Part shown: positions 7,697 through 61,679 of the stretch, one piece after another
How the letters are laid out: each line of letters starts with the position of its first letter
How positions within the stretch are numbered: the first letter of the stretch is position 1
DNA from: Eledone cirrhosa
Lineage: Eukaryota
Length of the DNA: 64,000 nt
Assembly: GCA_964016885.1 (NCBI GenBank)
Contig: OZ024743.1
Coordinates: forward strand, 348,936,001 to 349,000,000
Direction: 5' to 3'
Program-made: the position numbers and the translations under genes
Notes under the pieces: generated by a model
Seen by the model: the letters and a program-made list of their open reading frames with translations, nothing else
Told to the model about the DNA's origin: nothing
Databases searched by the model: none

Positions 7697-7751
<55 letters not shown>

Positions 7752-7755
<4 letters not shown>

Positions 7756-8542: not shown

Positions 8543-8718
<176 letters not shown>

Positions 8719-13197: not shown

Positions 13198-13589
13198 TAT
13201 TTTAATATATATATATAAATATATATACATATATAAATTAGCGAGAATCGTATTTCGGCTTTGGAAATTAGCGAAAAACAACTTCCGAGATGTGTGGCAA
13301 GCGCTCAATAAATTCTAACGAACCAGAGCTACAACATACGTTAAAAGATCAAACACACTGAGACGATGGTTAAACCATTATCCGCACAGCCATAGAAACG
13401 ACCAAGTAATTCGGGTCAAACAAATAAAAAAAATATGATTTATATATATATAATTTTGTATAAGATGTCGACCAACATGACTGTGTATGCAACACTTCGA
13501 TCAGTAAACGATGATGCAACTAGATCAAACACTCAACGACGTGTGTCTCTTTCCAAATGAGATTTGGGGCCCCATTAAGGATTATACAT

Positions 13590-18125: not shown

Positions 18126-18577
18126 AGTTTATTCAACTCTAACTGAGACTTTCTATGATATGTGTTACAGCTATGGCTGTTGAATCCTCCTCTTTGTCAT
18201 TGCGTATCTAACGCATCGTGTATGACTTTAAATTACATCTGGTTTCAGGGTTTTTGAAAGCCTCAGAAATTGAGAATAATGGATTTACCCCATAAACGAC
18301 AAAAATTGTTACCCGTAAGGGTAGCACGTGCAGGGGTTATAGAATATACTGCATTACGAAATCAGACTTATCCCGTATAGGCTCCTGGGATAGTAACCAA
18401 AGACAGTATATTTCAGATTTCAGAAGTAAAGTATTCGAACTTGTAAATTGCAATACGATTATCGGGTAGTGATGAAGTACAGATGATATGTATTTGCTAA
18501 ATCTATAGAACAGACCATTACAATAAGCGGATTCATAAATATAGTTAATCATGCACAAGGAGAACAATATATGTATG

Positions 18578-20380
18578 TTATCTCTTTCTCTTAATTTCGA
18601 GTATATTTTTTGACCGGCCACCTTCCTTGTGGCAAGGTTGTAAAAGAAAAGAAATTGTCATTCCTTGAATCGCAAGAATGTTTTGCAAATTTTGAAGGTG
18701 CAAGCTATCGCAGCCATTTGTAGACTATAAATTAGGGAACTGCGCTCTTTGTCCGCAAATCCAAGTTCAGTCATATTTTGGTCCAAGCGGGTTGGTATAT
18801 AACCCGTAGCTCAAATAATGATGGGTAAGAAGCTAAATGTGTATCTTGGATACTGGATTTGTAAACTCCTCATCAATGGTCAGTAGCTGTCCTCCTTCTC
18901 CTGTATTTTTCTGACAATGTTTACATCAAGTGGGCAGCTGATCTCCACAACAGAACACGTTTTCAATGTGTTGTCCCAAACGATTTCTGGCCGGTTGTGC
19001 TTTAATTTGGTGGCAGTTTTTATTTTCAGGTTCCACCAGTATTCCTTTGTGCCATCTGTCTCAATATATTCTTCCTCGTTTGTTGTTAATTTTGTTTTCC
19101 GAAGAGCGTTCCAGATGGTTCTAGCTATCCCATCGTGTCTCATGGAGAGGTAGTAGCGAGATGACATTCTTTGGCAGAGGGCGACAATGTGGCTTACATC
19201 CTCGATTTTTGTTTTACACAGCCTACATTTATTGTCAGCTGATGGCCCTCCTATTTGTGCAGCAGATATTTGGTAGGGAGTTCTTGTTCCTGTATTGCAT
19301 AGAGATATCCCTCAAGGAGTGATGTCATAAACTTGTCGGAACTCCATGCCAGGCTTTTTTATCCTCTCTATGGACTGTGTTTTACCTCTCAAGTATCCAT
19401 GCACAACTTTTTTCTGTAAATTGGTCAATATTTTCCTCTTATTTGAACATTGAATAGGATCTTCCGATTTCTCTGGGTGAGAGATTTATATCAGGCTTTA
19501 TTCCATATCTCCTCCAGATCAGTGGCTATTCTAATGATATTTTTTTTCTTGCTCATAAACCTGGGCAAGATTATTGCCAACCTTTTCCCTCTGTTGAAGG
19601 TGTTGCTTCAGTGTAACTATCCGGGTCTCATATGATGTTAATATGGATTTTAGACCCTGGCCACCTTCCTTGCGTGAGAAGTATAGCCTATCCACATCAC
19701 CATTGATGTTAAAGTTCCCAGTAACACTGAGAAGTTCTTGCAATGACCAGTTCAGCAGGCCAAATGTTGGCGTTAGAATTGGCACAGCATAAGTATTGTG
19801 GGCAATGTATTTGTGGTACGCTGACAGTTCTGATGACCATATTTTCTTTACTCTTCTGAGGTATTCAGTTCTGGTTCTCTCCTTATTTATCTGACATTCT
19901 CATCCTGTCCAAGATATCTGAAGTTGTCATCAGGCCGTTCATCTCTAGATTTCTAGAGGAGGGCACAGCTCTTCCACGTTTTACTGCCAAATACGCACAC
20001 TTGGACTCACCAAATTTCATTTTGATGTCTGTTGAAAATTGTGCACTGAGGTCCAATTGTTTCTTGATCTCATTGATATTTGGCCCATACAATTTCAGGT
20101 CATCAACAAAGAAATGATAGGAGATACTTATGGACCTAGTTCTTTGTCCACCTTGTTTCCTGAGTAGGTAAGATAGTGGATTCAGTGAGAGAACGAAGAG
20201 TAGCTCTGACAAGCTATCAACCTGAAAGATGCCCTTCTGGTAATGTATCTTATCAGTCTTAACTTGTTCCCTCTCACCTCTAAGTATCAAATTGGTGTAC
20301 CAGTTCTTGGTCAGACGTTCAACAGCAGCCACCAATGGTTGTGGGACTTTGTATAACTGTAAAGCCTTATCAATCCACCC
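18578..20380 (-). mobile_element. R4/Dong-clade non-LTR element (RT + CCHC + restriction-like endonuclease), 5'-truncated and decayed
   Basis: GIFQxDSLS, FVDDLKLY, FGESKCA, CRLC..H..C, RHD, NRPEIVWD, VVEISCP motifs. Confidence 0.88.
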
Positions 20381-20444
20381 ATGTATGTATGTATGTATGT
20401 TTGCATGTATGTATATCTGTTTGCATGTATGTATGTATATTATA

Positions 20445-21000
20445 TCGGGTCACTCTTGTGTGCTACTGGTAACATGTAACCCAGTACAACCTGTCGCATG
20501 GTCGGGTTGTCGTCAAGGAAACCAGTAACCCCACCAAGTTTACTTGGTGAGGAGGGTGATTTGGGACACCCTGCAGGAACAGAAATACCTGACTTAGGGC
20601 AGAAGAACTCATAAGGGTCAACGGCCATCCAAAAATGTGTAAATATATATATACACATGTATATATGTATGTATATGTATATATGTATATATGTATATAT
20701 GCATGTATTTATATGTGTGTATATACTGGGGATATAGAAATTGTCGGGTTGGATACCCGATTGCGCGGTTAAACCACTGGGAGGGAAAGAACCCTAGCCT
20801 TTGTCAGGGCATTCTTCTAGGAGAAGGCAAGTTAGGAAACTGGGATAACTCCGATATAAAACCTGCGGCTCAGTAGTTACCGGCGATGTTGATCTTTTCT
20901 TCTTTTCAGGTTATAGCTACTGTCGCTCATAGAGTGGGATTAGCTCAGTGCACAGTCTTTCGTCACTTTAAAAAAGAATCCTCACGCACAGGCATTGCAC
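20445..21000 (+). mobile_element. RTE-type 5' UTR-derived repeat, interrupted by a microsatellite
   Basis: Homologous to 53270-53570 (minus); CTAGGAGAAGG..AACTC.GATATAA.ACC motif recalled from RTE 5' regions. Confidence 0.55.
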
Positions 21001-25094: not shown

Positions 25095-25320
25095 TACCTG
25101 TGCATCCAGTACTCATATTGGTACCACCAACCATCAGTAGTTCACTGAATCAGAGACAATACGTCTCCATGCGTTGAGCTAATTTTTAGTCCCATAAAAC
25201 CGACTGCTATATTTAGCGGCACGGATATGAGATGAATTAGCCGCTGTGACACACGTGCGTTCAACAACACATGTTTATCAGTCTTCTTAAGTATTTTGAA
25301 GTGGAAGGTACCAATTTACG

Positions 25321-25417
25321 GATACCTGCAGAACAGTACAGGAATAGTAACTTTCACTTAATTGTTGCGAAACAAATTTAAAATTTATCAAACAGATTTT
25401 AAATTTGTCCAGGTATC
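25321..25417 (+). ncRNA. Type I hammerhead, degenerate core (CAGAACA)
   Basis: gatacctg CAGAACA gta..tgc GAAA caaattt..aaatttg TC caggtatc. Confidence 0.68.
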
Positions 25418-25833
25418 ACGGCCATTGCCAATATAGGTTTATTATTTTTATTGATTTATTATTTTAAATCGAGACAGGCAAACCATGTTATGTTAAATTA
25501 GTATTTTTTCAGCCTAGCTAACTTGGTCATTTGCAATCCGAACACTTCTATAATTGTATAGATGTTCACCCCTCCTATATTCATTTGTATTACACGGCTC
25601 AGAAATATTCCCTTCTTTGAGCTATTTAATTGTAAAAGACTATTTTGAGTTTATAACTCAATATTTGATATTCACGGCTCCATGCGTTGAGCTGATTTTT
25701 AATGCCATAAAACCGACTGCTATTTTTAGCGGCACGGATATGTGACGAGTTAGGCGCTGGGACTCACGTGCGTTCAACAACACATGTTTCTCAGTCTTCT
25801 TAAGTATTTTGAAGTGGAAGGTACCAATTTCTT

Positions 25834-25930
25834 GATACCTGCAGAAGAGCATAGGAATAGTAACTTTCACTTAATTGTTGCGAAACAAATTTAAAATTTG
25901 TCAAACAGGTTTAAAATGTGTCCAGGTATC
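25834..25930 (+). ncRNA. Type I hammerhead with CAGAAGA core and duplicated stem III
   Basis: gatacctg CAGAAGA gca..tgc GAAA caaatttaaaatttg TC aaacaggtttaaaatgtg TC caggtatc. Confidence 0.72.
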
Positions 25931-26221
25931 ACGGCCATTGCCAATATAGGTTTGTTATTTTATTGATTTATTATTTTAAATCGAGACAGGCAAACCATGT
26001 TATGTTATATTATTATTTTTTCAACCTAGCTAACTTGGTCATTTGCAATCCGAACATTTCTATAATTGTACAGATGTTCATCCCTCCTATATTCATTTGT
26101 ATATATATATATATATATACTAGCAGAGTTTCATCAAAATCAACGAACATTATTATAACTATATTTAGTTCAATAATTCTTTGAATGCAAAAGTCTATGC
26201 TCTCAAATTTCTGAATATATA

Positions 26222-30237: not shown

Positions 30238-33200
30238 TGTTTCTTTATTAGCCACAGGGGCACACAAGAAGGGGACAATTACAAACGGGGGAGTTTACAT
30301 ACAATAAAAACGCGTAAAATATTATCACAAATGCAAATTAAAAGTGAATCGATTTTCCCCAATAGGGGGAGACAGTTCATATGGGCAGCACATACCACCG
30401 TAAAAAATGTGCAACCCTTATCTCCAGGAGTACGAAGAGTTTGTAGCCCTTTCCTCTCTTCCTATTTTTCCTCAACCTACAGGCGGATATAAAGAGAAGG
30501 CCCATTCACTCGAGCCATTCTCGCCACTTTCACCCACCTTTCATAAAACTTGCTGGGGTAGAGCACCTCTCTCTCCATCCTGATTCTTCTTCCAAAGTAG
30601 TATTTGAAAAAGAGAATCAGTTGTTGGCCGGAGAAAAAGGTGTCTGCCCTCAGTCCTTTTAACTTCGTCCACCATACAACCTCTTTCGCCATAGCTATCA
30701 CACAAAGGAAAACCGTTTCTCCTTCGTTTTTGAAGGAGGGTGGCGGTTTGATCATGCCATTAGACTCGGTGGTCAACCGGATTGGTACCACCCGCGACGA
30801 TAGTCGTTCTACATAGCCTCACAGGTCGGTAACGCCCGGGCAGTGTATGAATGCGTGCGCGACGGTTTCTTCGTCTCGCACGCATCTCGGACAGATCTTT
30901 TTCGAAGGGTCCCAGCCCGGGCGCCCTTGTCTGTAGAGCTTGTCTCGAACTGGTAGAGCTCCTCGGTAGCACTGCCAGGCCAGGGACTTATGGAAGTTGT
31001 CCATCGGTCTCGGGCGGAAGGTCCTACCGAACAGACTGACCACTTCGTCTTCCTCCACGCCTAGATTTTCTCCGAGCGCGACTTCGCACTTGCTGCGGAT
31101 CAACCCTCTATAGACTGACGAAGTGGAATCTCCACTGATTGCCGGGTCCGCCTGCCAGAGGGCTGTGAGAGCCTGAGCACATTTGATGTTCCAGTCGCCC
31201 ATTTCTCTCGGTCTTTGCTTGACCCAGGAATGCAGCTCGGTCAGCGAGATGAGTCGTGGGAAGGCTCGCCTCACGAACGAAGCACACACCGGTTGTCCGG
31301 TGAGGAATACGTAGAGATACCGCAGCCTGAGCGCGTGTTTGTGCATCGTCAGCCACGGCATCCCCAGCCCTCCGTTGGAAGGGTGTTGGTAGCAGATGGA
31401 TCTTCTCACCAAAGGAGCCCGCTCCCTCCGATTGGAAGAGAGCGCGCTCCATTTTGGTGAGCGTTTTGGCTGGACAAGGCACGACGGTCAAGCGGTAATA
31501 GATGACGGACGCTATAAAAGTGTTCGCCACCTCCGCTCGACCTCAGCCCTCTTCTGGGTGAGTGCAAACACCTTGGCCGTCACCTCGTTCCAGCTCTTCT
31601 CCACCTGGAGCAAATCAGAGCAAACCAGACCCCCGAGCAGCTTCACCGGTCCTTCCGTCCAGCGTCCGACGACGCCATCGGAAGGCTCGGTCTGTCTCTC
31701 CACGATCCGAGTTGCAAACCGATGGACTTGTCCCGGTTCAGCTTAGCTCCTGTGAACCTTTCGTATTCCTTCAGTAAGATGCCGACTTCCTCGATTTGCG
31801 AGGTGCTCGACACCAATACTGACACGTTGTCGGTGCAGGCCGACGCCGCTTTCCGCAGTCCCTGTTCTAGAGGGATGCCCTGCAATAGCTCCAACTTCCG
31901 CAGTACTGGCTCGAAAGTCAGTACGTGCAGAAGAGAGGAGAGAGGGCATCCCAGTCGGTGGATCGCGTGATATGGAACGGCTCCGAGAGGTAGCCGTGCA
32001 CCTTGACCCTTGAGCAGATGTTGCTTTTGTGCATTGCAGCAATCCAGCCCCTGAACACAGGTCCGAAGCCTGCCGCCTCGAGCACCGCATCCAGGTACCG
32101 ATGGTCAACCGCATCAAAAGCCTTAGACTGTTCCAAGTTGATCAGCGCCCCACCGAAACCGGGTTTACACGCTACCCTCTCTACGATGTATCGCATAAGG
32201 TTGAGGGTGTCGTGTGTGGACCTGGTCGGGATTGCTCATGTCTGCGCTTCTCCCACCAGGTTTTCGACGACAAGCGCCACCCTCTTTGCCAACACCTTGG
32301 CCAAAATCTGTAACTCTGTGTTTAACAGAGTTATGGACCGGAATTTGCCTATGTCATCCCCCTTATACTCGTCCTTCCTGACTAGTGTGACTACGCCCCT
32401 GGTCACAGAACTAGGAATTCTCCCGTTCTGCTGCCAGTTGCAGTTGATCGCTTCCAGGAGACCGGAGAACAATCCGGCATTGCTACGTAAAATTCGTAGG
32501 GTAGACCGTCCAGACCTGGAGATTTGCGTTTGCCGCATCGGTTCAGCGCGTCTCCTATCTCAGCGGCTGAAATCCGCCTTACGCAGAACTTCGCCTCGCT
32601 GTCCGAGTGTCGCGGTAGGCCGTCGAGGTATGGACCAAAATCCATAGCCCTTCCCAGCGCGCCGCCCTGCCCGAACAGTTGAGCAAAGTGCCGCTGAAAA
32701 GCCATGCACATCTGCTTCGGCTCACGTATAACGCGTCTGTCTTAGTCCTTCAAATACCGAATCGTGGACTTGTTGCCACTTTCCCCTCCTTCACCCGGGC
32801 CCAGCTAACAGCTTTGTCTCCCTCGTTACCCAGAGCACGTATTTTGCTTCTGACAACGCAGCCCTCATGCTTTGTGTCGAAGAACTGGTCCAAGGCCGTT
32901 CTCGTTGCTAGCACGCTGGCTATGTTGCCACTCCTAAGTGCCTTTTCTACTTTATCTACCAGTTCCTTCTAGGTCCTATTTCTATCTAACGCTAATTCTT
33001 TAGTAAAAACTAACGAGTCTAATCTAACTTCACTCTTGAGAGAGTACCACCATCTGTTGTTGAAAACGGCCCCTGTCAAGTGCTGCTTAACTAAAGTGCT
33101 AATCCGCTTACTGTAAGCGTTTTCGTCGGTAAGGACAAGTTTAGCTTCCAGTAAGCGGGTCCTTGTCTATGGGTTCTATCAAGGTTGACCACTCCGGTCA

Positions 33201-35725
33201 CCAACTTGTGATCCAAATAGTCAACCATGAACATTCGTGGACAGCTTAATGTGTCCCTATCCTTGTTTCTAACTAGGAACATATCTAGGTACGACCTAGA
33301 TGTTGCGCTGCGATTAGTCCACAACCACAGTGGCACAGTCGGAAAATCTAGTCGATATCTATCGGCCAGATCAAATCGGGCGATTAACCGTTTGAGGCTG
33401 TTACACACCCCTCTATCGGGACATGCCCCTACATAGTCCCATCGTGCATCCAGGATACCATTCCAGTCCCCCACTAAAACCAAGGAGCAGGACGTTCACA
33501 GAAAAGTCTCTAGGCGCTGAAAGAAGTCTGGTCGCGGTGTCCCATATGGGGCATACGCTGCCACCAGCCTGAAGGCTCCAACTTCGCTACTGCCGACGTC
33601 TAGATCCACCAGTCGACCCTCCGGGTCCAGGTGTACCTTCCGTGTTTCGAGGCCCAGGTGTTTTCGCAGCAGAACGACCACCCTGTCCCTACTGACAGAG
33701 AGATGCATAGATCTCAAAGTCGTCGAAGATGGGGGCCAATTGGTGCTCGCTGCTGACCCTGGACACACAAATAGCTATCACATCCATTATGTGCGACCTG
33801 AGGACATTTTAGAGTTTGCCTTGATTCTAGGACATCCCCAGGCCGCGCACATTTAACGATCCAACTCTTATACCTGTCCTTCTCCTGGAGACCAGGCTGC
33901 ACACTTTCCATGGGGTGTCAGAAGGGTTGTTTGGTGGGTTGGTGGTTTGGGATGTGATGGGGACATCAGTGTGTGGTGGGATGGGGTGTTTGGTGGGGGA
34001 GGGGTATATGGGGTGGTGGTGGGGAAACATTTCAAAAGACGCGATTGATGGGTCTAGTACAGGGGTTCCCCACGTCCTCGGGGAAGTTCTGCTTGAGCAT
34101 TGCGTAGGTGTCCCTTGGGACCGTAATCATTTTTAAATGCGGTTTAGTCGCCGCGTTGGTGAACATTTTCCCTTCGGTTTCCACCGACGGTCTTTGTCCA
34201 TTGTTTGCATAACTGTTTTGTTGTTTGCGTTGATGTATGTATACTGTTTTTGTTGTGTTGTGTTTGTTTTTGTTTGTTGTTATTGTGTGTGTTTGCGTTT
34301 TGTAGTATTTGTTATATTTTCGGGGGGGGGGGTTATTTGTGATGTTTGTTCTGTTTGTGCTGGTGGCTGTGTGTTTGTTGTATTTTTGTTGATGTGGTGG
34401 CTTCTTTTCTTTCTTTTTACCGGTTGAAAGGGTACTCCCTCGTCTTCACTAGGTGACGTTGATAAGGGGTCCTCGTCCGTGTTGTTGGGGAGGGTTATAT
34501 TTTGGGGTTTTGTTGTGGTTGCGGGTGCTTTTGTATTTGTTTTAGGTGGGGAAGGGTTGGGTGGAACGGTGTCTTGTGTTGTTATTTTACTGTGTTGTTG
34601 TGGTTGTTGTGGCGGTGGTGGTGGCGGTGGGGGTGGTGTTTGTTTTGTTGTTGTGTGTGGGGTGGGCAGGAGCGTCTTTCTTTTGCGGGGGGGGAGGGGC
34701 ATTTAAAAGGGGACAGGAAGCCCTCAGGCGATCATTTCTTGAACAGTGGTAGCATGAAGGCCGCCTGCCCTCGACAGAAATGTTTATGAAGGCAAATCCA
34801 TCCAGAGACACCCGCTGCGGTATTCTTGCTATCCGTTCTGGTCTCATTTGGACCAGTATTTCAAGGCTATTGCCGCCGAATACGCCCACGGTGGATTCGC
34901 CTATCGAGAGGATTGTGTCCTCATCGTCTAAGAATCCCGTTAGCACCCACCAAAGGCTTGCATTTGGCCTGATGCCCGAGATTCTTATCCTTTGAGTTCT
35001 TTTCCCCAAATATGGGGGGAAAAGGTGTATAATTTGGATACAATTGCCGATACAGAGTATTTCCGTGCCGCTAATTGATCTTTCATTAGCACAGATATGC
35101 TTCCATGCAGTTTCCCTTTCTCTATAAAAGCGATATATTTCCAGGCACTACTTAGGACCAGCTTAATTTCGCTTTGGGACAATTGAGCCGGTTTCCTAGT
35201 TGCGTTGGAAATTGTCCTAAGAATTAAAGTCCTCAGGACTGTATCTTTTCTAACTTCTTCGGGGGATGAAATTGTGAATTCCCGACCTTCCCCAAAAGTT
35301 ACACAATGTGTTGCCTCCTTCAGCATCTCCCTGGCAGTCGAGAGGTCCAATGCCTTCTAAATATGTGTCTGTCGGACGGCCTGTGCGAAAGAGACTCTAG
35401 TCGTGGGTCAGCTCTCTTTCGTCTTGTTGTTCTTGTTGTCACTGATGTTGATATTTTTCGTATTTTCCTTGGTGTTGGTGTTGTTGTAGTCTTTGATGCT
35501 GGTATTATTGGTGTTGTCTTTATTTTTTCCTTTGTTGTTGTTGTCATTGTTGTTTTTATCATCATTATTGGTGGTGTTGTTGTTAATTTTGTTGTCATTG
35601 TACTGTTTGGTGTCATTTGTGTCGTTTGTATTTGAATTTGTTTTTACCATTTGATTTCGTCTTTCCATCTCCATAGTATCTATGTAGAAGAGAAGGGATG
35701 AAGACGATGTTGACTGCGAGTATAG
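30238..35725 (-). mobile_element. Tx1/L1-clade LINE, divergent family (copy D), near full length, decayed
   Basis: ORF1 remnants with CYHC..RLRASC knuckle; ORF2 RVGSLNVRG, GDWN, SPGLDG, KAFD, CPRC..H..C; AATAAAG 3' end near 30243. Confidence 0.92.
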
Positions 35726-36019: not shown

Positions 36020-36020
<1 letters not shown>

Positions 36021-36416
36021 GAAAAATTGAACAGGGACAGAACAGAGAGGCAGTACGATAAATGTTTATTAAATTCACGCTCAGGAGAGTGGGGGGGTAG
36101 GTGGGGGACGACGTTTCGGGCATAAGCCCTTCTTCAGGTGAGAGTTCAAAAGGTGTGTAGGGGAGTGGTGGAGAGACATATAGCGAAAGGAAACGGTGCG
36201 AATGAAAAATTAACAAATAAAGACAAAAATATAAATAATAAATAAAAATAAAGCATGATCAAAATACAAGGAATGAGAAAATTTAAAAATAAAGGCATGA
36301 TCAAAATAAACTGAAATTAAAAGGGGGGTAAACAGGTGGTAGAAGGGTGTGGGGTGAGTAGAGGTGGTGGCGGATGGAGTGGGGAGAGGGAGACGGGGTG
36401 TCCGAGCGGGGAGGGC

Positions 36417-36420
<4 letters not shown>
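36020..36420 (-). mobile_element. PLE pLTR-like fragment between (TA)n tracts
   Basis: Minimal hammerhead followed by ..CCTGAGCGT..AATAAA. Confidence 0.6.
36107..36140 (-). ncRNA. Minimal type I hammerhead motif
   Basis: Minus strand: cac CTGAAGA a ggg cttatg ccc GAAAC GTC gt; stem I weak. Confidence 0.62.
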
Positions 36421-36452
<32 letters not shown>

Positions 36453-36454
<2 letters not shown>

Positions 36455-39400
36455 ATGATATTAAATAGATGGTAACTATATTTATAAAACCATATTTATT
36501 TTATTATATATATTTCAAGGGCAACCAAGACAACATTGGTGCGCTTTCATCAGATAAAATACAAACTAGGTTTTATAAATAGAGACGTACCCATGAAAAT
36601 TCTACCTTATCGGTTGGAAATTCACTTGATAATGGAAACATATAAGGGATTATTCAAACTTATGTGTGAATATGCAAATGAATGTGTAAATAATTGAAAA
36701 AAAAAAACAACCGTTTATTTAAATGACACTGGAGAAAGATAGGGAAGAAAGAGAGAGATAGAAAAGATATTAATATTATGAGATAGATAGAGAGAACAAA
36801 TTTACAAGAGGATGAACATAACTCATGTAACGTAAATATGAGGGAATAAATTTTAAGTTTATATCTACTAATGGTACATATATTTACTATTATTTAGTTG
36901 TTAGAATTCTTTTTAATATAATATTTACTGTAGATAGAAAAATAAATAGATATATATAGAAAAATAAATGTATATAAAAATTAGATGGAAAAATATATGG
37001 AAAAATAAATAGAGCGAAAAATAGATAAATAGAAGAATAAATAAATAGAAAATAGATAGATAGAAAAATAAGTAGAAAATGAATAGAAAAATAAATAGAA
37101 AAATAAAAGCATAAATAAATAAATAGATAAGTAGATAAATAGGTAGATATATGGATATATGGGTATATCGTTTTATAGATAATTGTTTTAATGAGTTATG
37201 AGCGATATTGGTTTATATTTAATGTAAGTAATTATGTTAACTGAGTTAATAAGAATATTTATATATTTTAAATTGGGAAGATACGGAAAAAACTCAAGTT
37301 TGTTTATTTATTAGTTAGTATGAAACCATTTTGACAAAATAAGTTTCAACGTTAAAGATATAAATGTTGAAAGATATAGTTAGCCTGAATTAGTTAGTGG
37401 TTATAAATCTAATAAAAGATATTTAAAAAATGTTTATTAAAAATATTAAAAAATATTAAAAATTAGCAATTTTTAAAAAATAAGTAATGTTTAATATATA
37501 TGAAAGATTTAAGAAGTAAAAATTTTAAAATGAAAGATTTAAGAAGTAAAAATAAAAAATAAAAAATAAAAAATAAAGAATTAACAATCTTTAAAAATAT
37601 TAAAATTAAAGTTAATATTAAAAATTAAAATTTAAAAATTTAGGATCATATATGTATATAATTTAAGAAATTTTAAGAAGTGAAATTATAGCAAAATAAT
37701 ATATTAAAACAGAGTGGATAAGATTGTTATGTAAATAAGTAGAACTATTATAAGTGTAATTATAATTTATAATTTATATATAGTTCTAAACGTTGAATTT
37801 AGGCGATGTTTACAAGAGCTAAATAAATTAATTCGTACATTAATAGAGTTCTTACATTTAAGCATGAAGAAAATTTCCTCAACACACAATTTGCACAATC
37901 TAGATAAAGATGTGTATTGTAGGCAGGTGTTTCGAAATGATTTACCAAGTTAAAGAATAGTCCATATTTTTGGATTTTAAGTTTCATATCAGGTCGCATA
38001 GAGAAGTTGAAGATTGTTTTATCAAGTTTATTGAACGAGCATGTGTGATTGATCCAACGAGTTTTAAAGTCTGTAGAAGTTGAACCTACATAGTTAAATA
38101 TATTATCACTGGTTTTGACTGTGCATTTATAGACCACGTCCTTATCTGAGCACTTATTTTTTAAAGGACATTTTGATTAAATTTTAAAGTTACATTTAGC
38201 GGAGCTGATGTTATTCGCAACGGTACTATTATGTTGGATATTGCTAGAGATATTACTGCTATTTTGGTTATGGTTTAAATTTCTATTATTGATTCTATTT
38301 ATATTTTGTGCTATGTTCATAGTAGTAGAGTAAGATAGTTTTATTGTATGTCTGTTGAAGATTGAGTGACATCTATGGGCTTTAGGAAAACATTTATCTA
38401 ATGTTTTAAAGAATAGCTTAGCTAAAGGTGTTTTAACGCTTAATGAAAATGGAGGTGAATACCAAATTATATTTCTAGTTCTATTTCTTCTGTTAGTTTT
38501 AGAGTTTAAGTTAGGGGTTTTTTTTGTAATTATAATTAATAGTAGGGTTATTTGCCTTATCACTGTTGTCGATGTATTTAATCTTATTTATATAGCCTGC
38601 TCTATTTAAAGCTTCATTATAAAATTCTGCCTTATCGTCAAAAATGTTTTTATTAGCGGAGATTGGTGAAATACGTTGTTGGATAGAATTGACAATAGTG
38701 TTCTTGATAGATCTAGGATAATTAGTGTTAACACCTACATAGTTTAGATTCTCATTAATTTTATGGAATGGATAGTAGAGCCCTGTGTTAAAGTTTAATG
38801 TTACGTCTAAAAAGTTAACAATTTTATAGTTATTCTCTATTTCTAATTTAAGATTGTAGCTATTGAAAAATCGTATTATTGATTTTCTTTTTCTATTAAT
38901 TTCACAATTACTATTATTTTCAGTTAAAAGCAGCATATCATCACGATATAAACCACTGGTCATCTCTGGTATTTTTCTATGTAGTGTATTATTAATAAAT
39001 AGCCCCACAAGATCCGTTATTTGCGCCGAGTGCGATGACACCATGGTGATATCAAAATTATTTTTCTATCAGCTCTAGTCCAGAGATGATTGTTGAACTC
39101 AATTAAAGTTTTCCGTGCGGTTTAAATGATATGCATTTCTTCGCTAGATACATCTGTATGTATAGATGCATAGATAAGGTCGTTATTAAGTAAATTAGGA
39201 GTAATGGAGGAGTAGTAATTTCCAATATCCAATTGAATGAATTTTTTGTTGTTGAAATTTTATGTTATTGAACCAATCTATAACATCATTAGTATCGTTC
39301 CATAGTTTTAGGTAAGATATTTCTTTAAGATGCAGTATGATTCTATCTAATATATGTTTACTAACTATGCCTAAGTCTGATTTAAATGGTGCTATGAGTC

Positions 39401-39833
39401 TAACTCATTTCAAAGTTTCTTTTGTCGTCTTTCGGGTTAATGTTCTGTCTTCTAGGTATAAATGATTCGGTCCTATATTCAATGCCTAATTTATGAATTA
39501 TTTCAGAAGCTTCTCTATTTACAATTTCCATGTGTGTTGTTGTTGATGTGTGCTGTTGTTGATGTGTGTTGTTGTTGTCTCCGTTTGTGTTATTATTGTT
39601 GTGTGTGTTGTTATTGTTGTTTGTGTCTGCGTGTCTGTTGTTGTTGTTTCTGGGTATATTGTTATTGTTGTTGATGTTGGTGTGTGTGTTGTTGTTATTG
39701 TTGTTTGTATCTGTGTGTCTGTTGTTGTTGGGATGTGTGTTGTATATGTGTGTGCGTATATTGTTGCTTTTGTTTTTGTTTTTGTTTTTGTTTTTGAGGC
39801 TCCAGCGTAGTTTTGTAAATGATTTTTCTATTT
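36453..39833 (-). mobile_element. Penelope-like element (RT + C-terminal GIY-YIG; Nematis-like by motif recall), decayed, with a long AT-rich 3' region
   Basis: IEKSFTKLRW, RLIAPFKSDLG, GLYRDD, VNFLDVTL, IIWYSPPFS, KLSYS, CPL..C..VVYKC..YVGST..FKTR..H. Confidence 0.9.
36479..36581 (-). ncRNA. Type I hammerhead ribozyme, intact core, extended stem I
   Basis: Minus strand: tatttataaaacc..tattttat CTGATGA aagcgcaccaa..ttggttgccctt GAAA tatata TA ataaaata..ggttttataaata. Confidence 0.88.
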
Positions 39834-41735
39834 CTGCCGGCGTTGTATGGGCTTCGAAAAGACCATAAAACGGGCAGTGACCCTGTCACGGGACAACCAA
39901 CACGGCCAGTCTGTGGAGCTAACATTGCTAGTAACTACAGACTGTCCTACTTCCTCTCCCTGATCATACGCCCCATCATTGAAATGTCCCCAGATGTATG
40001 TGACAGCACGGAGGACCTCCTCAGCAGAATCGGCGTGAGTAACCGATCTAGGGACCTAACAAACTGCATAATAGGTAGTATGGATGTTGTGTCCCTGTAT
40101 CCATCCATTGACGTGGATTTTGCTGTGGAGAAATGCGTAGAAATGATCAGTGAGAGCAATGTTGAGTTCCGTGGGATTGATACCAGTGAGCTGGGACTCC
40201 TACTTAAACTTCCCTATAGTAATAATTACCTAGACACATATGACCTTAGCAACCTGTGCCCTACAAGACCAGCAAGAAGCAGACCACATACCATTACCTC
40301 AATGGCCAAGAAAACCCACACAGATAGATGGAACGGGTGGACCAGAGCCATACGGACACCCGAAAACCACGATGAACTTAAGAAAATGATTGCACATGCG
40401 GTAGGGGCCAGCATAAAACTAACCCTTAAGGAACATATGTTCAAATTTAATGGAAAAACATATGCCCAAGAGGAAGGAGCAGCCATTGGTGTTAGCATTG
40501 CAGGCGACATAGCTAACTTATTCACGGTATGGTGGGACAGTAGACTTAAACTTAAACTTAAAGAACAATTAGAAGCCTCCTTAACCCTGATAATGTACTC
40601 CCGCTACGTTAATGATATAAACATCGTAGTTAAGACACCCCCTCTAGAGAACAGTCAGGAACTAGAGGAAAACACAATGGAAAGCATCCAGCAAATAGCA
40701 AACTCCATCCACCAGAGCATTAAAGTTACTATAGACTACCCAAGTAAACACCCCAACCATCGATTACCTGTACTAGACACAGAGCTCTGGTTAGATACCA
40801 TTAACAACAAAAAACAAATCCTCCATTCCCATTATGCCAAACCCATGACTTCCAAACATCTGATCCACCGAAACTCGGCCGTTTCGGACCATACCAAAAT
40901 CAACATACTGATTGCGGATTTGGTACGGGTGATGAGAAATGTGTCCCGCATGTGCAACCCCGAAGAACTAGAGAGACACATACAACACTTCATCCACCGT
41001 ATGTAGTTCTCTGGCTACAACCAGAGAGATAAAATCAGAGTGTATAGAGGAGCCAGAACCAAATGGGAAAAAAATGGTAAATAATGACATACATGGGACC
41101 TGCCCCTTGTATAGGAGCAAATTTTGGAATAGAATAAAAAGAACTAGGAACAAGGCTAATAGAATAAACTCATGGTATGATAGCAATAAATACCAGAGTG
41201 TAATGTTCATCGATACAACCCCTAGAGGGGAATTAGCTTACAAATTTAGAAGGGCCCTAAACAAACATATACTCAATATTAAGATAGTAGAAAGACCAGG
41301 TACCTCCGTAAAACACGTATTAGCAAGACATACCCTTTTCAAAGACCCCCAAGTACAGATAAGAAATGTATAACCTGTAAAATAAGCCCCCATATTAACT
41401 GCAAAACTAGAAATGTAGTGTATAGCATAAGATTTACTGAAGGACAATGTAGAGACAAAAATATAGTGTACATAGGTGAGACAGCTCGTAGTGTAGGAGA
41501 ACGGATAAATGAACACTGGCGAGACCTTCAAGATAGTAAAGAATCATCTGTACTCTACCAACATGCTAAAATAGAACACAAGGTTAAATTAAAGAACATA
41601 GAAATAAAAATAGAATCTACACACAGAAAAGACGCAATGTTTAGACAAATTACAGAGGCAATAAACATAAAAGAATTACAACCAAAATTAAATAGAAAAT
41701 ATGAGTGGAACAGCAACATCACAACTTACAATTAA
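39834..41735 (+). pseudogene. PLE RT/GIY-YIG polyprotein, interrupted; catalytic YVDD reads YVND
   Basis: ORFs 39819-41006, 41074-41373, 41418-41735. Confidence 0.85.
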
Positions 41736-41936
41736 GTACAAAATGAAAACACACACACACATAGAACAAACAACCAACCAGTAACATGTAAATAAACAAA
41801 TAAATAAATGAACATAAACACACACAGACACCCGGATGTGGCGCATGCGCAGACTGAGCACACAACACACACACAGATACAAAATGGCGTAGGACAGAAC
41901 AAAGGAGAGACACAGAAACAAAGAAAGGAATCCCCA

Positions 41937-41979
41937 GTCACTGAAGAGGTCACAGAGTGTGTGACGAAAGAACTATGAC
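41937..41979 (+). ncRNA. Minimal type I hammerhead, intact core
   Basis: gtca CTGAAGA g gtcac agagtgt gtgac GAAA gaac TA tgac. Confidence 0.85.
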
Positions 41980-42429
41980 AATATATAAACAACTATCTGG
42001 TTGTGGAACCAACCAACCAGAAATTTATAAATTTATAAATTTATTATAAATTTATTATAATAAATTGAAGTGAAAGCAACTGGTTCGTGTGTTTCTTATT
42101 GGCAACATGACCCTCCCAAAGTATAACAATATCGGTTTCAACACACGATTTCAGATAAAGAATCTTGCTAAACAAATTCAGAAACGAAATATATATATAT
42201 ATATATATATATATATCAATGAGAACAGAAGGCCTAGATTCTAATATATTATTTAGACTATGAGGCAAGACAATCGATGACGGGACCAGGTGTAATAGTC
42301 ATAAAAAATTTAGTTCAGTAATTCTTACAGGGTCATAGCAAAGATAAACAAAGGATTGCTAATCGTAATGTCTAGATCAACCCATTAATCAAACCATCCA
42401 ACATAGACTGTACGTATATATATATGTGT

Positions 42430-44988: not shown

Positions 44989-45473
44989 AAGTATCTGTGA
45001 GCATGCATGTGATTTTATATATTTTTCTATTTATTTTACGACAATTTAATTAGACCTTTTGTCTTAATATACCATAAATTAATTCCATCTTTTATATTTT
45101 AATGTGTTCCAAATCTGTTTTACGGAAACTTATTTATCATACTACCATGGCATCCAAACTTATTTTCATTTGATACCAATAAACACCCATTATTTTTTAC
45201 GCATCCATTGCTGGAGATATGATATCTTTGCAAGTGGACTCTATTACGACATTGATAATTTGAAATATGAAATCTTGGTTAGCCATAATCCCCCAAAATG
45301 TATCATCCATTACAAATTATATATATCCCATCTGAAGCCGCATTTGAGTAATTTTAACAGTGTATGTGTACACACTAGTGTATACATATAATACTTGTTT
45401 CTCCTTTTGGCACAAGGCTAGCAATTACTCAGTGGATTACTGGTACTTTAAGATCTCGTTCCTGGATATGTCA

Positions 45474-45574
45474 ATATTTATAAAACCAACTTTGTATTTT
45501 ATCTGATGAGTGCGTACCAAAATGTTGGTACCCATGAAATATATATAATAGAATAAATATGGTTTTATAAATAT
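45474..45574 (+). ncRNA. Type I hammerhead ribozyme, intact core, in a solo pLTR stub related to 36453-36590
   Basis: atatttataaaacc..tattttat CTGATGA gtgcgtaccaa aatg ttggtacccat GAAA tatata TA atagaata..ggttttataaatat. Confidence 0.88.
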
Positions 45575-45598
45575 AGTTTCCATTTATTAATATCATTG

Positions 45599-45630
<32 letters not shown>

Positions 45631-55080: not shown

Positions 55081-57000
55081 TATTATTATTATTATGATTA
55101 TCATCATTGTTATTTTTATTTTCTTTCATTATTGTTTCTGAGATATATGCCGAGTGTCTTCTTGGCACCTAGGGCAAATAAATTCAGTGTGCATTGGTAA
55201 GCCAGTTAATGCAGCACATTGATTATAATAAAAAAAAAACAGTATACATATATACACATGTGCATATGCATATGTAAATACAAGGAGGGGTATCAATCTC
55301 ACAGAGATAGTGCTCTTCTCAATATGTGTGCAGTACCAGTCAAAACAATTTTTTTGCACCTCGTGCAGAGAGGGTAAACCAGGAATCATTCGTAATTATT
55401 GTTCTGTTCCTTTCTTGATCATTCCCAGTCCTCCTACAATCACTGGTATTGTAACGACCTTGAGGTGCCACATTTTCTCAATTTCAATAAGCAGATCTTT
55501 ATATTTTCGTAGCTTGTTAAATTCCTTTGCCGCGATATTGTGATCACATGGGATGCTCCTATCTATCAACAAACAGACATTGTTATGTTGATCTTTTATA
55601 ATGATTCCAGGGAAGTCCCAGAGAATTGTTACTTTTTCTCCTTCAGTTACAGCCTCAGGGTAATGATTGTACCACTTGTGTTCAGCTTTGATTTTGTAAT
55701 GCGGATATATTACCCAGTGTAGATATTGGCCAACTCTGTCATGTCAATATTTGTATTCTACTGGTGCTAAAATTTTACATCCAGAGACAAAGTGATCAAC
55801 TGTTTCATTGCAGAATCGGCACTTTGGGTTTATTCCGTTTCTCATCACATTGGCCTTGTAATTCAATAAGTTTTCATCTTGGGCAGCTAAGATGAAGCCT
55901 TCACTCACCGCCTTTAGCCCTGAACTACGTAGCCACTGATGGGTGTGCTTTTGGTCAACATCAGCTTGTCTGCTACGGGCCACATATTTACTATGCAGAG
56001 GTTTCTGCTCCCAATGTGATGCTAATTGTCCTTGCCCTTTTGCTTTTGCCAGTGATTTTATGCGCCTGGCAGCATCAGTTGCAACAGTTTATTTAGTCTG
56101 CCCAGCCTGGCTATCAAGCATGAGATCAGTAGCATATTTTTTGCTCTCCTTCAAGATAGAATGAAGCTTCTTACTTCTCTCATGTTTTCAACAAGTTTCA
56201 GCATACAGTCGTTAGTTGTTTCAAGGTATTTGGCCAGTCCAATGATGGCGGTCTTGTAAGCCAGTTCAAATTGGATCAGGCCAAGGCCTCCTTGAGTTTG
56301 TAAAGACGATCCACATATGCTTTTGGGTGGTGCATCCTATTACAAGTCAATAGTTTACAGACTTTGGTGTCAATTCTTTTGATTTCACTCATATTCCATT
56401 TCAACACACCGAAGCTATAAGTGACAACTGGGACTGCCAAGGAATTTATGGCTAGCACCTTGTTACGGGCGTTTAGTTCTGATCTCAGAACTGTACGTAC
56501 TCTCCTGTAACATTCATTCCCTATCCTCTCTTTCATACTTGCTTGCGCTATGCCAGAGCCCTCATTAATCCCTAAGTATTTATAGGTTTGTTCCTGCTCA
56601 AGCTCCTTTATGATTGTTTCAGCATCCAATTCAACTGAGTCTGAGTTGTCAACCTTCCCCTTCTTGAAAGTTGCTTTTGCACACTTGTCAAGTCCAAACT
56701 CCATCCTGATGTCATCGCTAAACGTTTTTACTATCCGCAAAAGGCCTCCCAGTTCGTCTTTATCTTTGCAATATAGCTTCAAATCATCCATATAAAATGT
56801 GTGGCTTATTTTATTGTTGTCACTTCTATAACCGTAGCCTGTTCTATTAAGCTCGGATGTAACGGGTATTAAAGCTATGCAGAAAAACAAGGGTGAAAGT
56901 GAGTCACCCTGGAATATACCACAGTGATTCCAAGAGCACAGTATCCCAGTGGAATGAGACAATTGGAGATTTGTGTTCCATAATGACATATTGTGTTTCA
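55081..57000 (-). mobile_element. Dong/R4-clade non-LTR element, second family, 5'-truncated, ending in a degenerate (TAA)n
   Basis: GIFQGDSLSP, YMDDLKLY, FGLDKCA, YKYLG, HHPKA.VDRLY, EGFILAAQD, CRFC..ETVDH..SGC. Confidence 0.9.
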
Positions 57001-57141
57001 GGAAGTTTGAGATATATATGCACCCTTCACATCTTCAGCCACAGAGATGTTTGCATAATAATTAGTCGGATTTTTGATTAAACAGAACTATCCCCGAAAT
57101 GAACAGTGTGTTTTCCGATCTATGTCGCTTTCTTTTCTTCA

Positions 57142-57879: not shown

Positions 57880-58030
57880 TTTTCTTTTTCGTTTCTTATA
57901 TAAATAAGAAAAATCTTTACAAGCACAAAACCCACATCGTACCCTCCTGTACCGTCCTGTGCCGCCTGTAATGTTTTTCTTGATGTCATCCCTTGTGGCC
58001 AATAAAGAAATTATTATTATTATTATTATT
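57880..58030 (+). mobile_element. Tx1 3' UTR stub with (TTA)n
   Basis: TGTACCGTCCTGT..CCCTTGTGGCCAATAAAGAAA(TTA)n. Confidence 0.75.
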
Positions 58031-59004
58031 CAGCCTCTACTAGAATGTCTTCAGGCGCTCACGGCCCTCAACCAGTCGGGCAATGTAATCTTTGGAAACT
58101 CCAACTTGGCGTTCTATAGAGGATTAGTGGAAGGGAAGAACGACGACGTACATGGGGAAACTCTAGGCATCGACGAAAATCAACTAGCCAATCTCTTCGG
58201 AAGAACTTTCGGGCCAGAGCCTAAGGACAATTTTCAGAAATCCCTGGCCTGGCAGTGCTACCGAGGCGCTTTGTCAGTTCGGGATAAACTCTACAGGCAT
58301 GTCCGGGATGCGCGCAGTGCGACGAAACCGTCCTGCATGCACTCGTCCAGTGTCCGAGCATTGCTGACTTGTGGGTTTATGTCGAACACCTGTTGTCGCG
58401 TGTAGAACGGATCCGGCTATCAGCTGAGTCCATCGTGAGGATTGCCCCGCCCTCATCCTTTAGCCGGGAAGGGCAGGCAGTTGTTATCTGTCTGGTGGCT
58501 ATGGCGAAAGAGATAGTATGGTGGACACGTCTGAAAGGGCTGAAGACGAACACTTACCTCTTCGGTGATACCCTGATTAACTTTTTCAAATATCATTTGA
58601 AATGGAAAATCAGGGTAGAGAGGGAAGTGCTCTCTTCCCAGCATTTTGTTGAAAGATGGGTGAGAGAGGCAAGAATGGCCCGAGTGTTGAAAAATTCCCC
58701 AATACTCTGAGTATATGCCTTTAAACTTAAGGTGGAAAACTGGGAGACGGCACTTGGCCTGGTGGTCAGGATCACCGTGGCTTTTTGAATGGGCTTTCTC
58801 CACAATGGCCCTCGGAAGTTTCCCCCCTATTGGGAAATCTTTCATTGTTCTTTTTTGTTACATCCTTTGTTTTTTTGTTTTTTTACACGCAGAAATGCCC
58901 ATTTGTACCGTCCTGTATTGTCCTGTACTGTCCTTAATGTCTACTTTGTGTAAACCCTTGTGGTTAATAAAGAAAGCATTATTATTATTATTATTATTAT
59001 TATT
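58031..59004 (+). mobile_element. Tx1 3' fragment, A/B family
   Basis: Near-identical to ~820-1793; (TTA)n tail. Confidence 0.92.
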
Positions 59005-61679
59005 CTGGCATATTTACGTAAAGCTCGTAGGATAGGCCATCCAAACCGGGTGACTTGCGCTTCATGCTGCCGACAAGGGCGGCCTGAATTTCGGCTCAAG
59101 TAATCGGCCTTTCGCAGCGCTCAGCGTCGACCGTCGAGATGCGCGGCAAGTCGTCAAGGTAGGGACTGACATCCGCTACTCTCTCTGACTCGCCACTCTC
59201 CCCGAACAACCGAGAAAAGTGCTGGCGATTACGCTTGGAATTGCTTATCTCGTGTCCGTCTCGGTCCGCCAGAGAGCGTATTGTGGTTTTATTACCACGC
59301 TGTGCCTCCGCCATGCGGGCCCATCGAATAGATTTGTTTCCCTCGTTTCTCAGCGCACGCGCCTTAGCTCTGACAATGCAACCTTCGTGTTTCGCATTGA
59401 AGAAATGGTCTAATGCCATTCTCGCTACTAGCACATCAGTTGCAATGCCACTACAAATAGCCTCGTCTAACTTATCTACCAGTTTGTTCTCCGATCTCCT
59501 CGAAGCACTCTAATGCAACTGGCAGATGAATGGGAGTATTCCCAGTTCTGTGAGCAGGGGAGTGGTGACACTGATAAAGAAAGACGAGAACAAGAGGGAT
59601 ACATTAGACAACTTCAGGCCCATAACTCTGCTCAACACAGAGTTTAAGATTTTGGCCAAGGTGTTAGCAAAGAGATTGGCGCTTGTCATCGAGGATTTGG
59701 TTAGGGAGGCGGAAACTTGCGCAATCCCAGCCAGGTCTATACACGACAATCTCCACCTCATGCGATACATCATAGAGAGGGTAGGGTGTAAACCTGTCTT
59801 CGGTGGAGCACTGATCAATTTAGGTCAATCGAAAGCATTCGATAGGGTCGACCATCGGTATCTGGAGTTTGTCCTCAAAGCGGCTGGCTTCGGCCCTGTC
59901 TTCAGAAGCTGGATCGCTGCAATGCACAGCGTCAAGGTTAATGGCCACCTCTCGGATTCAATTCGGCCTTCTCTCTTCCCTTCTGTACGTATTGACTCTC
60001 GAGCCTTTACTGCGGACGCTGGGCATCCCGCTCGAACCGGGACGTGGGAAGGCGGTGTCGGCTTATGCGGACGACATCACTGTGATGGTTTCGGACACCT
60101 CAGAAATCGAGGTGGTCGGTACCTTATTGAAGGAATAGGAAAGGTTGATAGGAGCCAAACTTAGGCCGGAAAAGTCAGTGGGCTTGCAACTCTGAACCTG
60201 GAGAGGCAAGCCTATGCCGTCCAACAGCGTCGTGGGGCGCTGGACGGACGGACCGGTTATGTTGCTCGGGGTTTGGTTTGGACCAGACCTCCAGGTGGAA
60301 AAGAAATGGGACGAGGTAACGAGCAGAGTAGCCAGTCTCACCCAAAAATGGGCTGGGAGGAAGCTATCACTGAAACCTCGCGCGGAGGTGGCGAATGCGT
60401 ACATCGCATCCGTCATCTACTACCGCCTGACAGTCGTGCCTTGACCCCGTCCTCGCCTCGTCAATTTGGAACGGCTCCTCTTCAAATTCTTGTGGAGGGG
60501 ACAAGTTCCCTTGGTTAGGCGGTCCATCTGCTGTCAGCACCCTCTACGCGGAGGGCTGTGCATGCGTGGCTAATGATGCGCAGACATGCATTGAGGCTGC
60601 GACATCTCCAGATATTCTACCTAAACGGTGAACAGTTGTGGTCGCCGTTTATCAGACGGGCCTCTCCGCAGATCGTTTCATTGACTGAGCTGCTGTCCTG
60701 GCTCAAGTAGAGACCAAGACTGGGTGACTGGCACCTGGAATGTTGCCAGGCACTAACTGCTCTCTACCAAGCGGGCAATGCGATCAGTGGAACTTCCACT
60801 CTCTGGTTCTATAGATGATTAGTGGTGGGTAAGTGCGATGACGCACTCGGAGAAGCTTTGGGCCTCGACGAAGTCGAACTGACCAGTCTGTACCGGATGA
60901 CTTTTGAGCCGGGAACGATGGACAATTTCCAGAAATACCTCGGTTAGCAGTGCTACCGGGGGGCACTGCCGGTTCGGAATAAACTCTACAGGCGAGGAAG
61001 TGCTGTCAGACGGACCTGCCCGAAATGCGCACAGAACGACGAAACCGTTCTGCACGCACTTGTCCAATATTCGTGCATTACTGACTTGTGGAGTTATGTT
61101 GTCGCGTGTAGAGCAGGAAATTTTCCTCTGTCTGGTGGCCGTTGAGAAAGAGATTATATGGTGGACCAGATTAAAAGGACTGAAGACAGACACTTTTCTC
61201 TTTGGCCAATCCCTTATCAACTTCTTCAAGTTTCACCTGGAAAGGAAGGTGAGGGTGGAGAGAGAAGTGCTGCCCCCCAGTACATTTGCTAAAAGGGGGA
61301 TGAATGTGGCGAGAATAGCCCGTGTTAATGTGCCTTCTCTGACCATGCGCCTATAGGCTAGCTAACTTGAGGAGAGGGTGCTCTGCCTGGGTGCCCTAGA
61401 AGCGCAGGGTGGTTCAGGATTGGTGGGGTACCTGAGTCACTCCAGGGTCGTCCACCCCCTATCGGGGAATTTATTTTGTTATGTTTCGTTATGCAGTTTA
61501 TTTTATATTTTTTATATCTTCATTGTTAAATTAGTCTTGTCATTGTGCACTTTTACTCTACCTTATTGTAAACCGCCACTGTCCCTGTCTTTGTATTGTC
61601 CCCTACATCTCGGCCCTTGTGACTAATAAATGAAATCATTATTATTATTATTATTATTATAATTATTATTATTATTATT
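59005..61679 (+). mobile_element. Tx1 copy E, 5'-truncated with an inverted 5' segment (59005-~59483)
   Basis: Minus-strand KLVDKLDE..SPGLDGLSYELYVNMP joined to plus-strand LFSDLLEAL*CNWQ..RT..3' UTR (TTA)n. Confidence 0.9.

What the first reader, a model, noticed from the sequence alone, without database searches (positions are those of the whole stretch)
36479..36581. Intact, extended hammerhead at a PLE 3' end, with a structurally conserved sister at 45474-45574
Both copies have perfect CUGAUGA/GAAA cores, an 8-bp plus 13-bp stem I split by an internal loop, and a palindromic UAUAUA stem III. Stem II differs in sequence (aag-c-gca-ccaa versus gtg-c-gtaccaa) yet pairs in both. This is larger than the usual minimal PLE HHR. 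These are the best candidates for still-active ribozymes here, and they lie on opposite strands, so either orientation of a host transcript would include one.
Basis: partly seen in the sequence, partly recalled or inferred. Interest (0 to 1): 0.7.

Follow-up and report, generated by a model that had tools for sequence, protein, structure and literature searches.

The report
Hydra-type Penelope retrotransposon hammerhead ribozyme
Both sites are intact hammerhead ribozyme motifs at the tail end of a very abundant jumping-gene family, likely of the known Hydra group of Penelope-like elements, and they are predicted to cut RNA only weakly on their own, so this is a real but ordinary feature.

Summary
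Two type I hammerhead motifs (36479-36581 minus, 45474-45574 plus) have perfect cores and occur far above chance. Copy A lies 1.25 kb downstream of a decayed RT + C-terminal GIY-YIG reading frame with Hydra-clade Penelope features. Both copies end about 50 nt past the predicted cut site in (TA)n, the known Hydra target. Copy B is a 5'-truncated solo end. Public reads show a very high-copy family: among the variants shown, none touch the core, and three different stem II sequences keep one shape (3 bp, C·C mismatch, long helix). The 'extended' build is mostly a clade trait: 16 of 43 hammerheads in Hydra-type loci have stem II of 9 bp or more, and a model built only from such loci finds exactly these two copies. 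Stem I here is the longest seen. Activity is untested and doubtful for solo copies: the all-A/U stem III is predicted not to form in a monomer. The opposite-strand argument is weak, because a transcript spanning both copies meets the antisense copy first, and no host gene was found. New member of a known kind; low interest.

The parts
36479..36581 (-). Hammerhead copy A: type I, stem I 13+8 bp, stem II 10 bp with C·C mismatch, AUAUAUAU stem III
   Evidence: Hydra-type model 30.4 bits, E 4.3e-6
36547..36553 (-). Core CUGAUGA of A (GAAA at 36516-36513; AUA triplet 36507-36505; predicted cut 36505/36504)
   Evidence: sequence; no variant at these positions among the 40 rows shown (32 rows hidden)
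36420..36478 (-). 3' tail after the ribozyme (element ends at about 36453, 52 nt past the cut site), followed by the (TA)n target 36452-36420
36582..37800 (-). A/T-rich 3' UTR between reading frame and ribozyme (inferred to be one element)
   Evidence: no other window repeat interrupts it; contigs of other copies tile 36490-36800; 36800-37800 linkage not tested
37806..39530 (-). Decayed Hydra-type PLE reading frame: RT (YRDD), linker, C-terminal GIY-YIG; several frameshifts and stops; 5' end unclear
   Evidence: Pfam GIY-YIG E 9.8e-4 and RVT_1 E 0.043, both below cut-off; tblastn with relatives up to E 1e-65; frames
45474..45574 (+). Hammerhead copy B: stem I 15+8 bp, stem II 10 bp with C·C mismatch; predicted cut 45547/45548
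   Evidence: Hydra-type model 34.7 bits, E 1.9e-7
45459..45626 (+). Whole B insertion: 5'-truncated about 140-nt 3' end of the family plus (TA)n from about 45599; abuts a 60-nt 5' piece of a dispersed SINE-like repeat (45390-45450); no ORF relative upstream

Best explanation
These are the 3'-terminal type I hammerhead motifs of one very high-copy Penelope-like retrotransposon family, likely of the Hydra clade, left behind as a decayed copy (A) and a 5'-truncated end (B) that both end in (TA)n. Shown: the motif, its position downstream of an RT + C-terminal GIY-YIG frame, the (TA)n ends, the high copy number and the structure-keeping variation. Inferred: in active parent elements the ribozyme cuts the element's RNA after AUA, most likely as a double hammerhead in which the AUAUAUAU palindromes of two copies pair to make stem III. 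Selection at that stage would explain why the core and helices are kept while stem II sequence turns over. Inferred: the two solo copies here are mostly passive relics that would cut slowly at best as monomers.
For: Frame features fit the Hydra description in PMC8557442 section 11: C-terminal endonuclease, no CCHH, CxxC and CxH flanking E and N, (TA)n insertion, 3' hammerhead. By eye the RT is homologous to Hydra-1_Obim as printed in that paper's supplement. 37 of 79 related metagenome loci carry a sense type I hammerhead downstream of the frame; 51 of 79 had 250 nt or more of 3' flank. A covariance model from 11 such long-stem-II loci (13 of 18 pairs with two-sided changes, 0 of 500 shuffles as high) ranks B and A first (E 1.9e-7, 4.3e-6); the next hit is E 0.095. 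L003 shares the same 8-bp proximal stem I and GUG...CAU base of stem II. Reads: 4546 contigs in X1 and 26249 reads in X7 lie on 348 bp. Of 17 shown substitution rows inside the motif, 0 are in the core, 9 in loops, 1 in the palindrome (keeps U·G pairs) and 7 in helices, of which 6 can keep a pair. All shown indels inside the motif fall in upper stem II or its loop. Energetics favour the dimer: double hammerhead of B is 0.6 kcal/mol above the dimer optimum, while monomer active folds are 4.4-5.2 above theirs. Literature: PLE hammerheads have short palindromic stem III, work as dimers and cut slowly in vitro (PMC4209133; PMC6765202).
Against: No tree against named reference clades was built. The DKT motif lies in a missing part, RWK is ambiguous, and the linker's second Cys is not kept in this copy. 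Continuity between frame and ribozyme across 36800-37800 was not shown in other copies. One shown variant (36569, the majority in X1 and X7) breaks the innermost distal pair unless its partner changes in a hidden row; 32 substitution rows are hidden. A 21-23 bp stem I would fold within one molecule first and could hinder the strand swap that a dimer needs (inference). For A the double hammerhead is 3.5 kcal/mol above the dimer optimum. In a Poseidon PLE, ribozyme cutting was dispensable for insertion in vitro and no RNA-seq ends were seen at the cut site (PMC11167929).
Confidence: 0.82

Rival explanations
1. The long bipartite stem I and long stem II pre-organise the junction so that a single copy cuts efficiently, using a tertiary contact at the conserved C·C mismatch; solo copies such as A and B then cut host transcripts that read through them.
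For: C·C at the fourth position of stem II in A, B and two further stem II types seen as loose ends. Distal stem I of 13 and 15 bp exceeds the longest (12 bp) among 43 Hydra-type motifs. Stem II base pairs have probability 0.94-0.98. Folding software does not model tertiary contacts.
Against: Monomer stem III probability about 0 and proximal stem I register 0.06-0.17 at 37 C, lower at 20 C. The palindrome duplex (-3.2 kcal/mol) is weaker than in 40 of 43 Hydra-type motifs. Base of stem II is A-U or G·U, not the canonical G-C. A shared C·C may be plain descent. No host exon found among 63 ORFs.
Confidence: 0.12
2. The motif belongs to a short non-autonomous retrozyme-like element (tandem units giving small circular RNAs) rather than to the Hydra frame upstream of A.
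For: Depth in X1 falls from about 3.5 million at 36489-36500 to about 1000 at 36765-36800, so short 3' pieces far outnumber longer ones. B is a solo 140-nt piece. Animal retrozymes are argued to derive from PLE ends (10.64898/2026.07.22.740005).
Against: No tandem copy in the window and no head-to-tail joint within the 348 bp laid (longer units would be missed). A sits in the expected place and orientation behind a Hydra-type frame, and its build matches Hydra-locus ribozymes. 5' truncation and stem II divergence explain the depth slope.
Confidence: 0.1
3. The kept structure serves the element's protein (template or tail recognition during reverse transcription) and cleavage is incidental or lost.
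For: In a Poseidon PLE, catalytic mutants inserted normally in vitro (PMC11167929). Antisense strands fold equally well. Stem III has drifted to a weak all-A/U form.
Against: The unpaired catalytic core shows no variant among the rows shown while neighbouring loops vary freely; a mere hairpin handle would not need it. Hydra-type loci keep the core too.
Confidence: 0.12

Closest known systems
3' hammerheads of Hydra-clade PLEs (Craig et al. 2021, PMC8557442; File S2 lists Hydra-1_aMil, Hydra-1_oBim, Penelope-1_HM and others)
   Same: Type I, near the 3' end, short palindromic stem III, (TA)n target, C-terminal GIY-YIG frame upstream, non-canonical base of stem II common.
   Different: Another family than Hydra-1_oBim (its listed ribozyme differs in every stem). 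All-A/U stem III with AUA triplet (2 of 43 Hydra-type motifs use AUA, 37 use GUA), C·C mismatch in stem II, longer stem I (8 + 13-15 bp).
Minimal PLE hammerheads (Cervera and de la Pena 2014, PMC4209133)
   Same: PLE-linked, type I, palindromic loop 3, proposed dimer action.
   Different: Those have helix I of 4-5 bp, a bulged base before a G10.1-C11.1 pair and almost no helix III; this one has 21-23 bp of stem I and R10.1-U11.1.
Non-LTR retrozymes of animals (PMC7229834; 10.64898/2026.07.22.740005)
   Same: High-copy type I hammerheads; weak helix III forms need dimers (axolotl).
   Different: Retrozymes are tandem 150-450 bp units with canonical loop 1-loop 2 contacts; here copies are solo and one follows a PLE frame.
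Rfam Hammerhead_1 (RF00163)
   Same: Core and type I topology align on B.
   Different: 12.2 bits against a cut-off of 34; none on A. The long stem II and 2-bp stem III do not fit the model.

Membership tests
Type I hammerhead ribozyme | Core CUGANGA ... GAAA ... NUH | tested here: met
   CUGAUGA, GAAA, AUA in both copies
Type I hammerhead ribozyme | Helices I and II flanking the core, ends in helix I | tested here: met
   8 + 13/15 bp and 10 bp; pair-keeping changes between copies
Type I hammerhead ribozyme | Helix III | tested here: inconclusive
   2 bp + 4-nt loop as monomer, probability about 0; 8-bp palindromic duplex as dimer, -3.2 kcal/mol
Type I hammerhead ribozyme | Loop 1-loop 2 tertiary contact | not tested
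   No canonical contact was looked for systematically; a C·C mismatch is conserved
Type I hammerhead ribozyme | Self-cleavage at the predicted bond | not testable with these tools
   Needs an in vitro assay or RNA end mapping
Rfam Hammerhead_1 (RF00163) | Gathering score 34 bits | tested here: not met
   12.2 bits on B, no hit on A
Hydra-clade PLE | RT followed by C-terminal GIY-YIG endonuclease | tested here: met
Hydra-clade PLE | No CCHH motif; CxxC and CxH either side of conserved E and N | tested here: met
   One Cys between the VVY and YVG blocks; CKLC and CKH present (read)
Hydra-clade PLE | CxCX5C linker | tested here: inconclusive
   Spacing kept but second Cys absent in this decayed copy; intact in the relatives and in the window's other fragment at 11774
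Hydra-clade PLE | RWK and DKT motifs | tested here: inconclusive
   An RW motif lies in frame upstream of an N-rich stretch but may belong to the neighbouring element; the DKT region is missing
Hydra-clade PLE | Insertion into (TA)n and hammerhead near the 3' end | tested here: met
   Both copies end 51-52 nt past the cut site in (TA)n; Hydra-type model finds both
Hydra-clade PLE | Placement in the RT phylogeny with named Hydra families | not tested
   Reference sequences were seen only as printed text in a supplement and compared by eye
Non-LTR retrozyme | Tandem repeat units each with a hammerhead | tested here: not met
   No tandem copy in the window; no head-to-tail joint in 348 bp. The rest of the genome could not be searched

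The most novel reading that the evidence does not exclude
This family carries a hammerhead variant in which a 21-23 bp bipartite stem I docks on a long stem II at a conserved C·C mismatch, so that it cuts fast as a monomer despite an all-A/U stem III identical to its (TA)n target; the many solo 3' ends would then be a genome-wide set of transcript cutters, switchable by antisense copies and (UA)n tracts.
Probability: 0.1. Interest if true: 0.65.

Novelty: new member of a known kind. Interest (0 to 1): 0.28.

Why it matters
As identified, it adds one family to the known set of Hydra-clade hammerheads and shows that Rfam misses them. Its modest value: I found no test of a Hydra-clade ribozyme in the open library, and this family offers natural stem II variants for asking whether long stems let PLE hammerheads work without a partner. 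If solo copies did cut, a very high-copy family would matter for host RNA processing.

Tried and rejected
No whole genome is held, so copies, tandems and host genes could not be counted genome-wide. No RNA holder listed; this says nothing on expression. Exact DNA patterns of the motif found nothing in viral or metagenome contigs; protein searches of viral contigs found no relative. Whole-window Rfam gave only below-cut-off matches, mostly microsatellite-driven miRNA hits. Earlier scan findings: none by sequence or place; one unrelated by words. An A-to-I editing footprint was considered: T>C against A>G places were 7:5 (X1) and 9:10 (X7), so no strand bias. A weak saposin hit at 7589-7921 falls on low-complexity sequence and was rejected as a host exon. 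L034 was dropped from the model alignment because it misaligned, and the second L015 copy as a near duplicate: 11 of 13 eligible loci were used. X5 and X6 gave few contigs (4 and 38) and were not used as evidence of other species. The RAD run X7 is enriched for one stem II type, apparently by a restriction site in it, so its shares are not copy frequencies. Lunse et al. 2017 (PMC5785218) is not held; I saw it only as a citation, and it may already cover this variant.

Full report
Observation. A reads on the minus strand: 13-bp distal stem I, internal loop, 8-bp proximal stem I, CUGAUGA (36553-36547), a 10-bp stem II with a C·C mismatch at its fourth position and one bulged U, GAAA, the palindrome AUAUAUAU and an AUA triplet (predicted cut 36505/36504). 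B on the plus strand has the same plan with a 15-bp distal stem (predicted cut 45547/45548). They are 85% identical over 179 nt. A strict descriptor finds 2 sites against 0.003 per shuffled window (300 shuffles). Rfam does not call them (best 12.2 bits against 34).

Context. The window is animal-like repeat DNA: microsatellites, a dispersed 190-nt SINE-like repeat, L1-like and other RT fragments; 63 ORFs of 75 aa or more outside the recognised elements gave only RT hits above or near cut-off and no convincing host domain. I take it for a cephalopod, probably an octopus; that rests on recall of the SINE and on likeness to Hydra-1_Obim, and no call names the organism. [quoted passage not shown] Its features fit the Hydra clade as defined in PMC8557442 section 11: no CCHH, CxxC and CxH around E and N, (TA)n insertion, a hammerhead near the 3' end. 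The linker, RWK and DKT tests were inconclusive in this decayed copy, and no tree was built. Both copies end 51-52 nt past the cut site in (TA)n. B has no frame upstream; it is a 140-nt truncated end joined to a SINE-like fragment.

Is the size unusual? An alignment of 9 relatives plus the window RT piece pulled 79 Hydra-type loci from metagenomes, the best of 317 confirmed stretches. 37 of 79 carry a sense type I hammerhead downstream of the frame; 51 of 79 had 250 nt or more of 3' flank. Among 43 distinct motifs (up- and downstream, some from the same element, a few possibly chance) 16 have stem II of 9 bp or more, 3 a proximal stem I of 8 bp, and 20 a distal helix of 7 bp or more against 19% in shuffles. 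The longest distal helix there is 12 bp, so the window's 13 and 15 bp are at the top. A covariance model from 11 long-stem-II loci, with strong covariation of its own (13 of 18 pairs, 0 of 500 shuffles), ranks B (34.7 bits) and A (30.4 bits) first; the next match scores 16.5. The extended build is therefore mostly a clade trait. What is particular to this family is the all-A/U stem III with AUA (2 of 43), the C·C mismatch and the length of stem I.

Variation across copies. On 36453-36800, at 80% likeness, 4546 contigs of run X1 and 26249 reads of X7 were laid, so the family is very abundant in organism A. Forty substitution rows are shown and 32 hidden. Seventeen shown rows fall in the motif: none in the core or triplet, nine in loops, one in the palindrome (A to G, keeps U·G pairs in a dimer), seven in helices. 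Six of those seven can keep a pair (A-U to G·U at 36501, 36502 and 36546; C to U at 36521; the linked 36541/36522 change, C-G in A against U-A in B). One, 36569, breaks the innermost distal pair unless its partner changes in a hidden row. Loose ends show two more stem II types, one like B's inner helix on A's base and one wholly different 9-bp helix; both keep 3 bp, C·C, then a long helix. Depth drops about 50-fold just 5' of the motif and over 1000-fold by 36800, as expected from 5' truncation plus divergence.

Mechanism. Nearest-neighbour folding puts the monomer active form 5.2 (A) and 4.4 (B) kcal/mol above the optimum; stem III probability is about 0 and the proximal stem I register 0.06-0.17, because the palindrome competes for the U-rich 5' strand. 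The double hammerhead is 0.6 (B) and 3.5 (A) kcal/mol above the dimer optimum at 37 C, 3.8 and 5.7 at 20 C. The palindrome duplex is weak (-3.2), weaker than in 40 of 43 relatives. This fits the literature view of slow, dimer-dependent PLE hammerheads (PMC4209133; PMC6765202). Against it, a long stem I should fold within one molecule and hinder strand swapping, and tertiary contacts are not modelled; a monomer-active variant stays open at about 10%. B is the better assay candidate.

Host-transcript argument. A is on minus at the lower coordinate and B on plus at the higher, so a transcript in either direction makes the antisense of one copy before the sense of the other. The two could pair at -141 to -179 kcal/mol against -58 to -77 for folding apart. 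With no host gene seen and a family of very many copies, the opposite orientation carries little meaning.

Papers seen. PMC4209133: parts 1-2 of 4. PMC8557442: passages, section 11 whole, supplement part 2 of 59 and search passages. 10.64898/2026.07.22.740005: part 1 of 5; its supplements are closed. PMC11167929, PMC7229834, PMC6765202: passages. Lunse et al. 2017: not held, citation only; it and its supplements may already include this variant. Searches showed no paper on this family or on an assayed Hydra-clade ribozyme; subscription papers are not covered.

Verdict. Real, well-supported hammerhead motifs of a likely Hydra-clade PLE; new member of a known kind; activity untested and doubtful for these solo copies. 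Interest 0.28.

Noticed in passing
window 36020-36419, minus strand (core at 36137): A second, minimal PLE-type hammerhead-like motif (CUGAAGA, 4-bp stem II, only about 2 bp of stem I) in a separate 400-nt piece lying between two (TA)n tracts directly behind copy A; fails my scan's 3-bp stem I rule.
   Followed up: partly
window 39819-42000, plus strand (core at 41941): Another broken PLE (RT + GIY-YIG, different type) with its own minimal hammerhead 200 nt past the stop: 4-bp stem I, bulged G, 6-bp stem II, CUA triplet.
   Followed up: partly
window about 39540-39840: The two PLEs meet back to back; an N/T/H-rich low-complexity stretch with an RW motif is in frame with the Hydra-type frame but may be an inverted 5' part of the plus-strand element.
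   Followed up: no
window 11747-13205, plus strand: 3' part of a second Hydra-type family with intact CxCX5C linker and endonuclease, a 1-kb 3' UTR and a decayed hammerhead-like remnant at 13143-13180 (core reads CAGAAGA) shortly before (TA)n. A third fragment lies at 21997-21614, minus.
   Followed up: partly
L001-L079: The base of stem II (10.1/11.1) is U·U in 19 of 43 Hydra-type hammerheads and G-C in only 14; the same pattern is visible in File S2 of PMC8557442.
   Followed up: partly
window 7750-8560 and 25161-26102: About 500-bp unit in partial tandem, with an inverted part at the first site, next to (TA)n; PLE-end-like layout but no hammerhead core found by my scan.
   Followed up: no
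window 36457-36469 (loose ends): Many reads that share the ribozyme's 3' half continue into different 3' tails, suggesting several subfamilies or an optional tail.
   Followed up: no
window 7415, 9928, 13671, 17939, 27656, 35727, 45390, 45754, 47095, 57141: About ten whole or partial copies of a 190-nt SINE-like repeat; the 60-nt piece at 45390-45450 is joined directly to copy B.
   Followed up: no
window 1-7400, 30500-35350, 58000-61350; 18567-20449; 55132-57034: Several L1-like and other non-LTR retrotransposon remnants.
   Followed up: no
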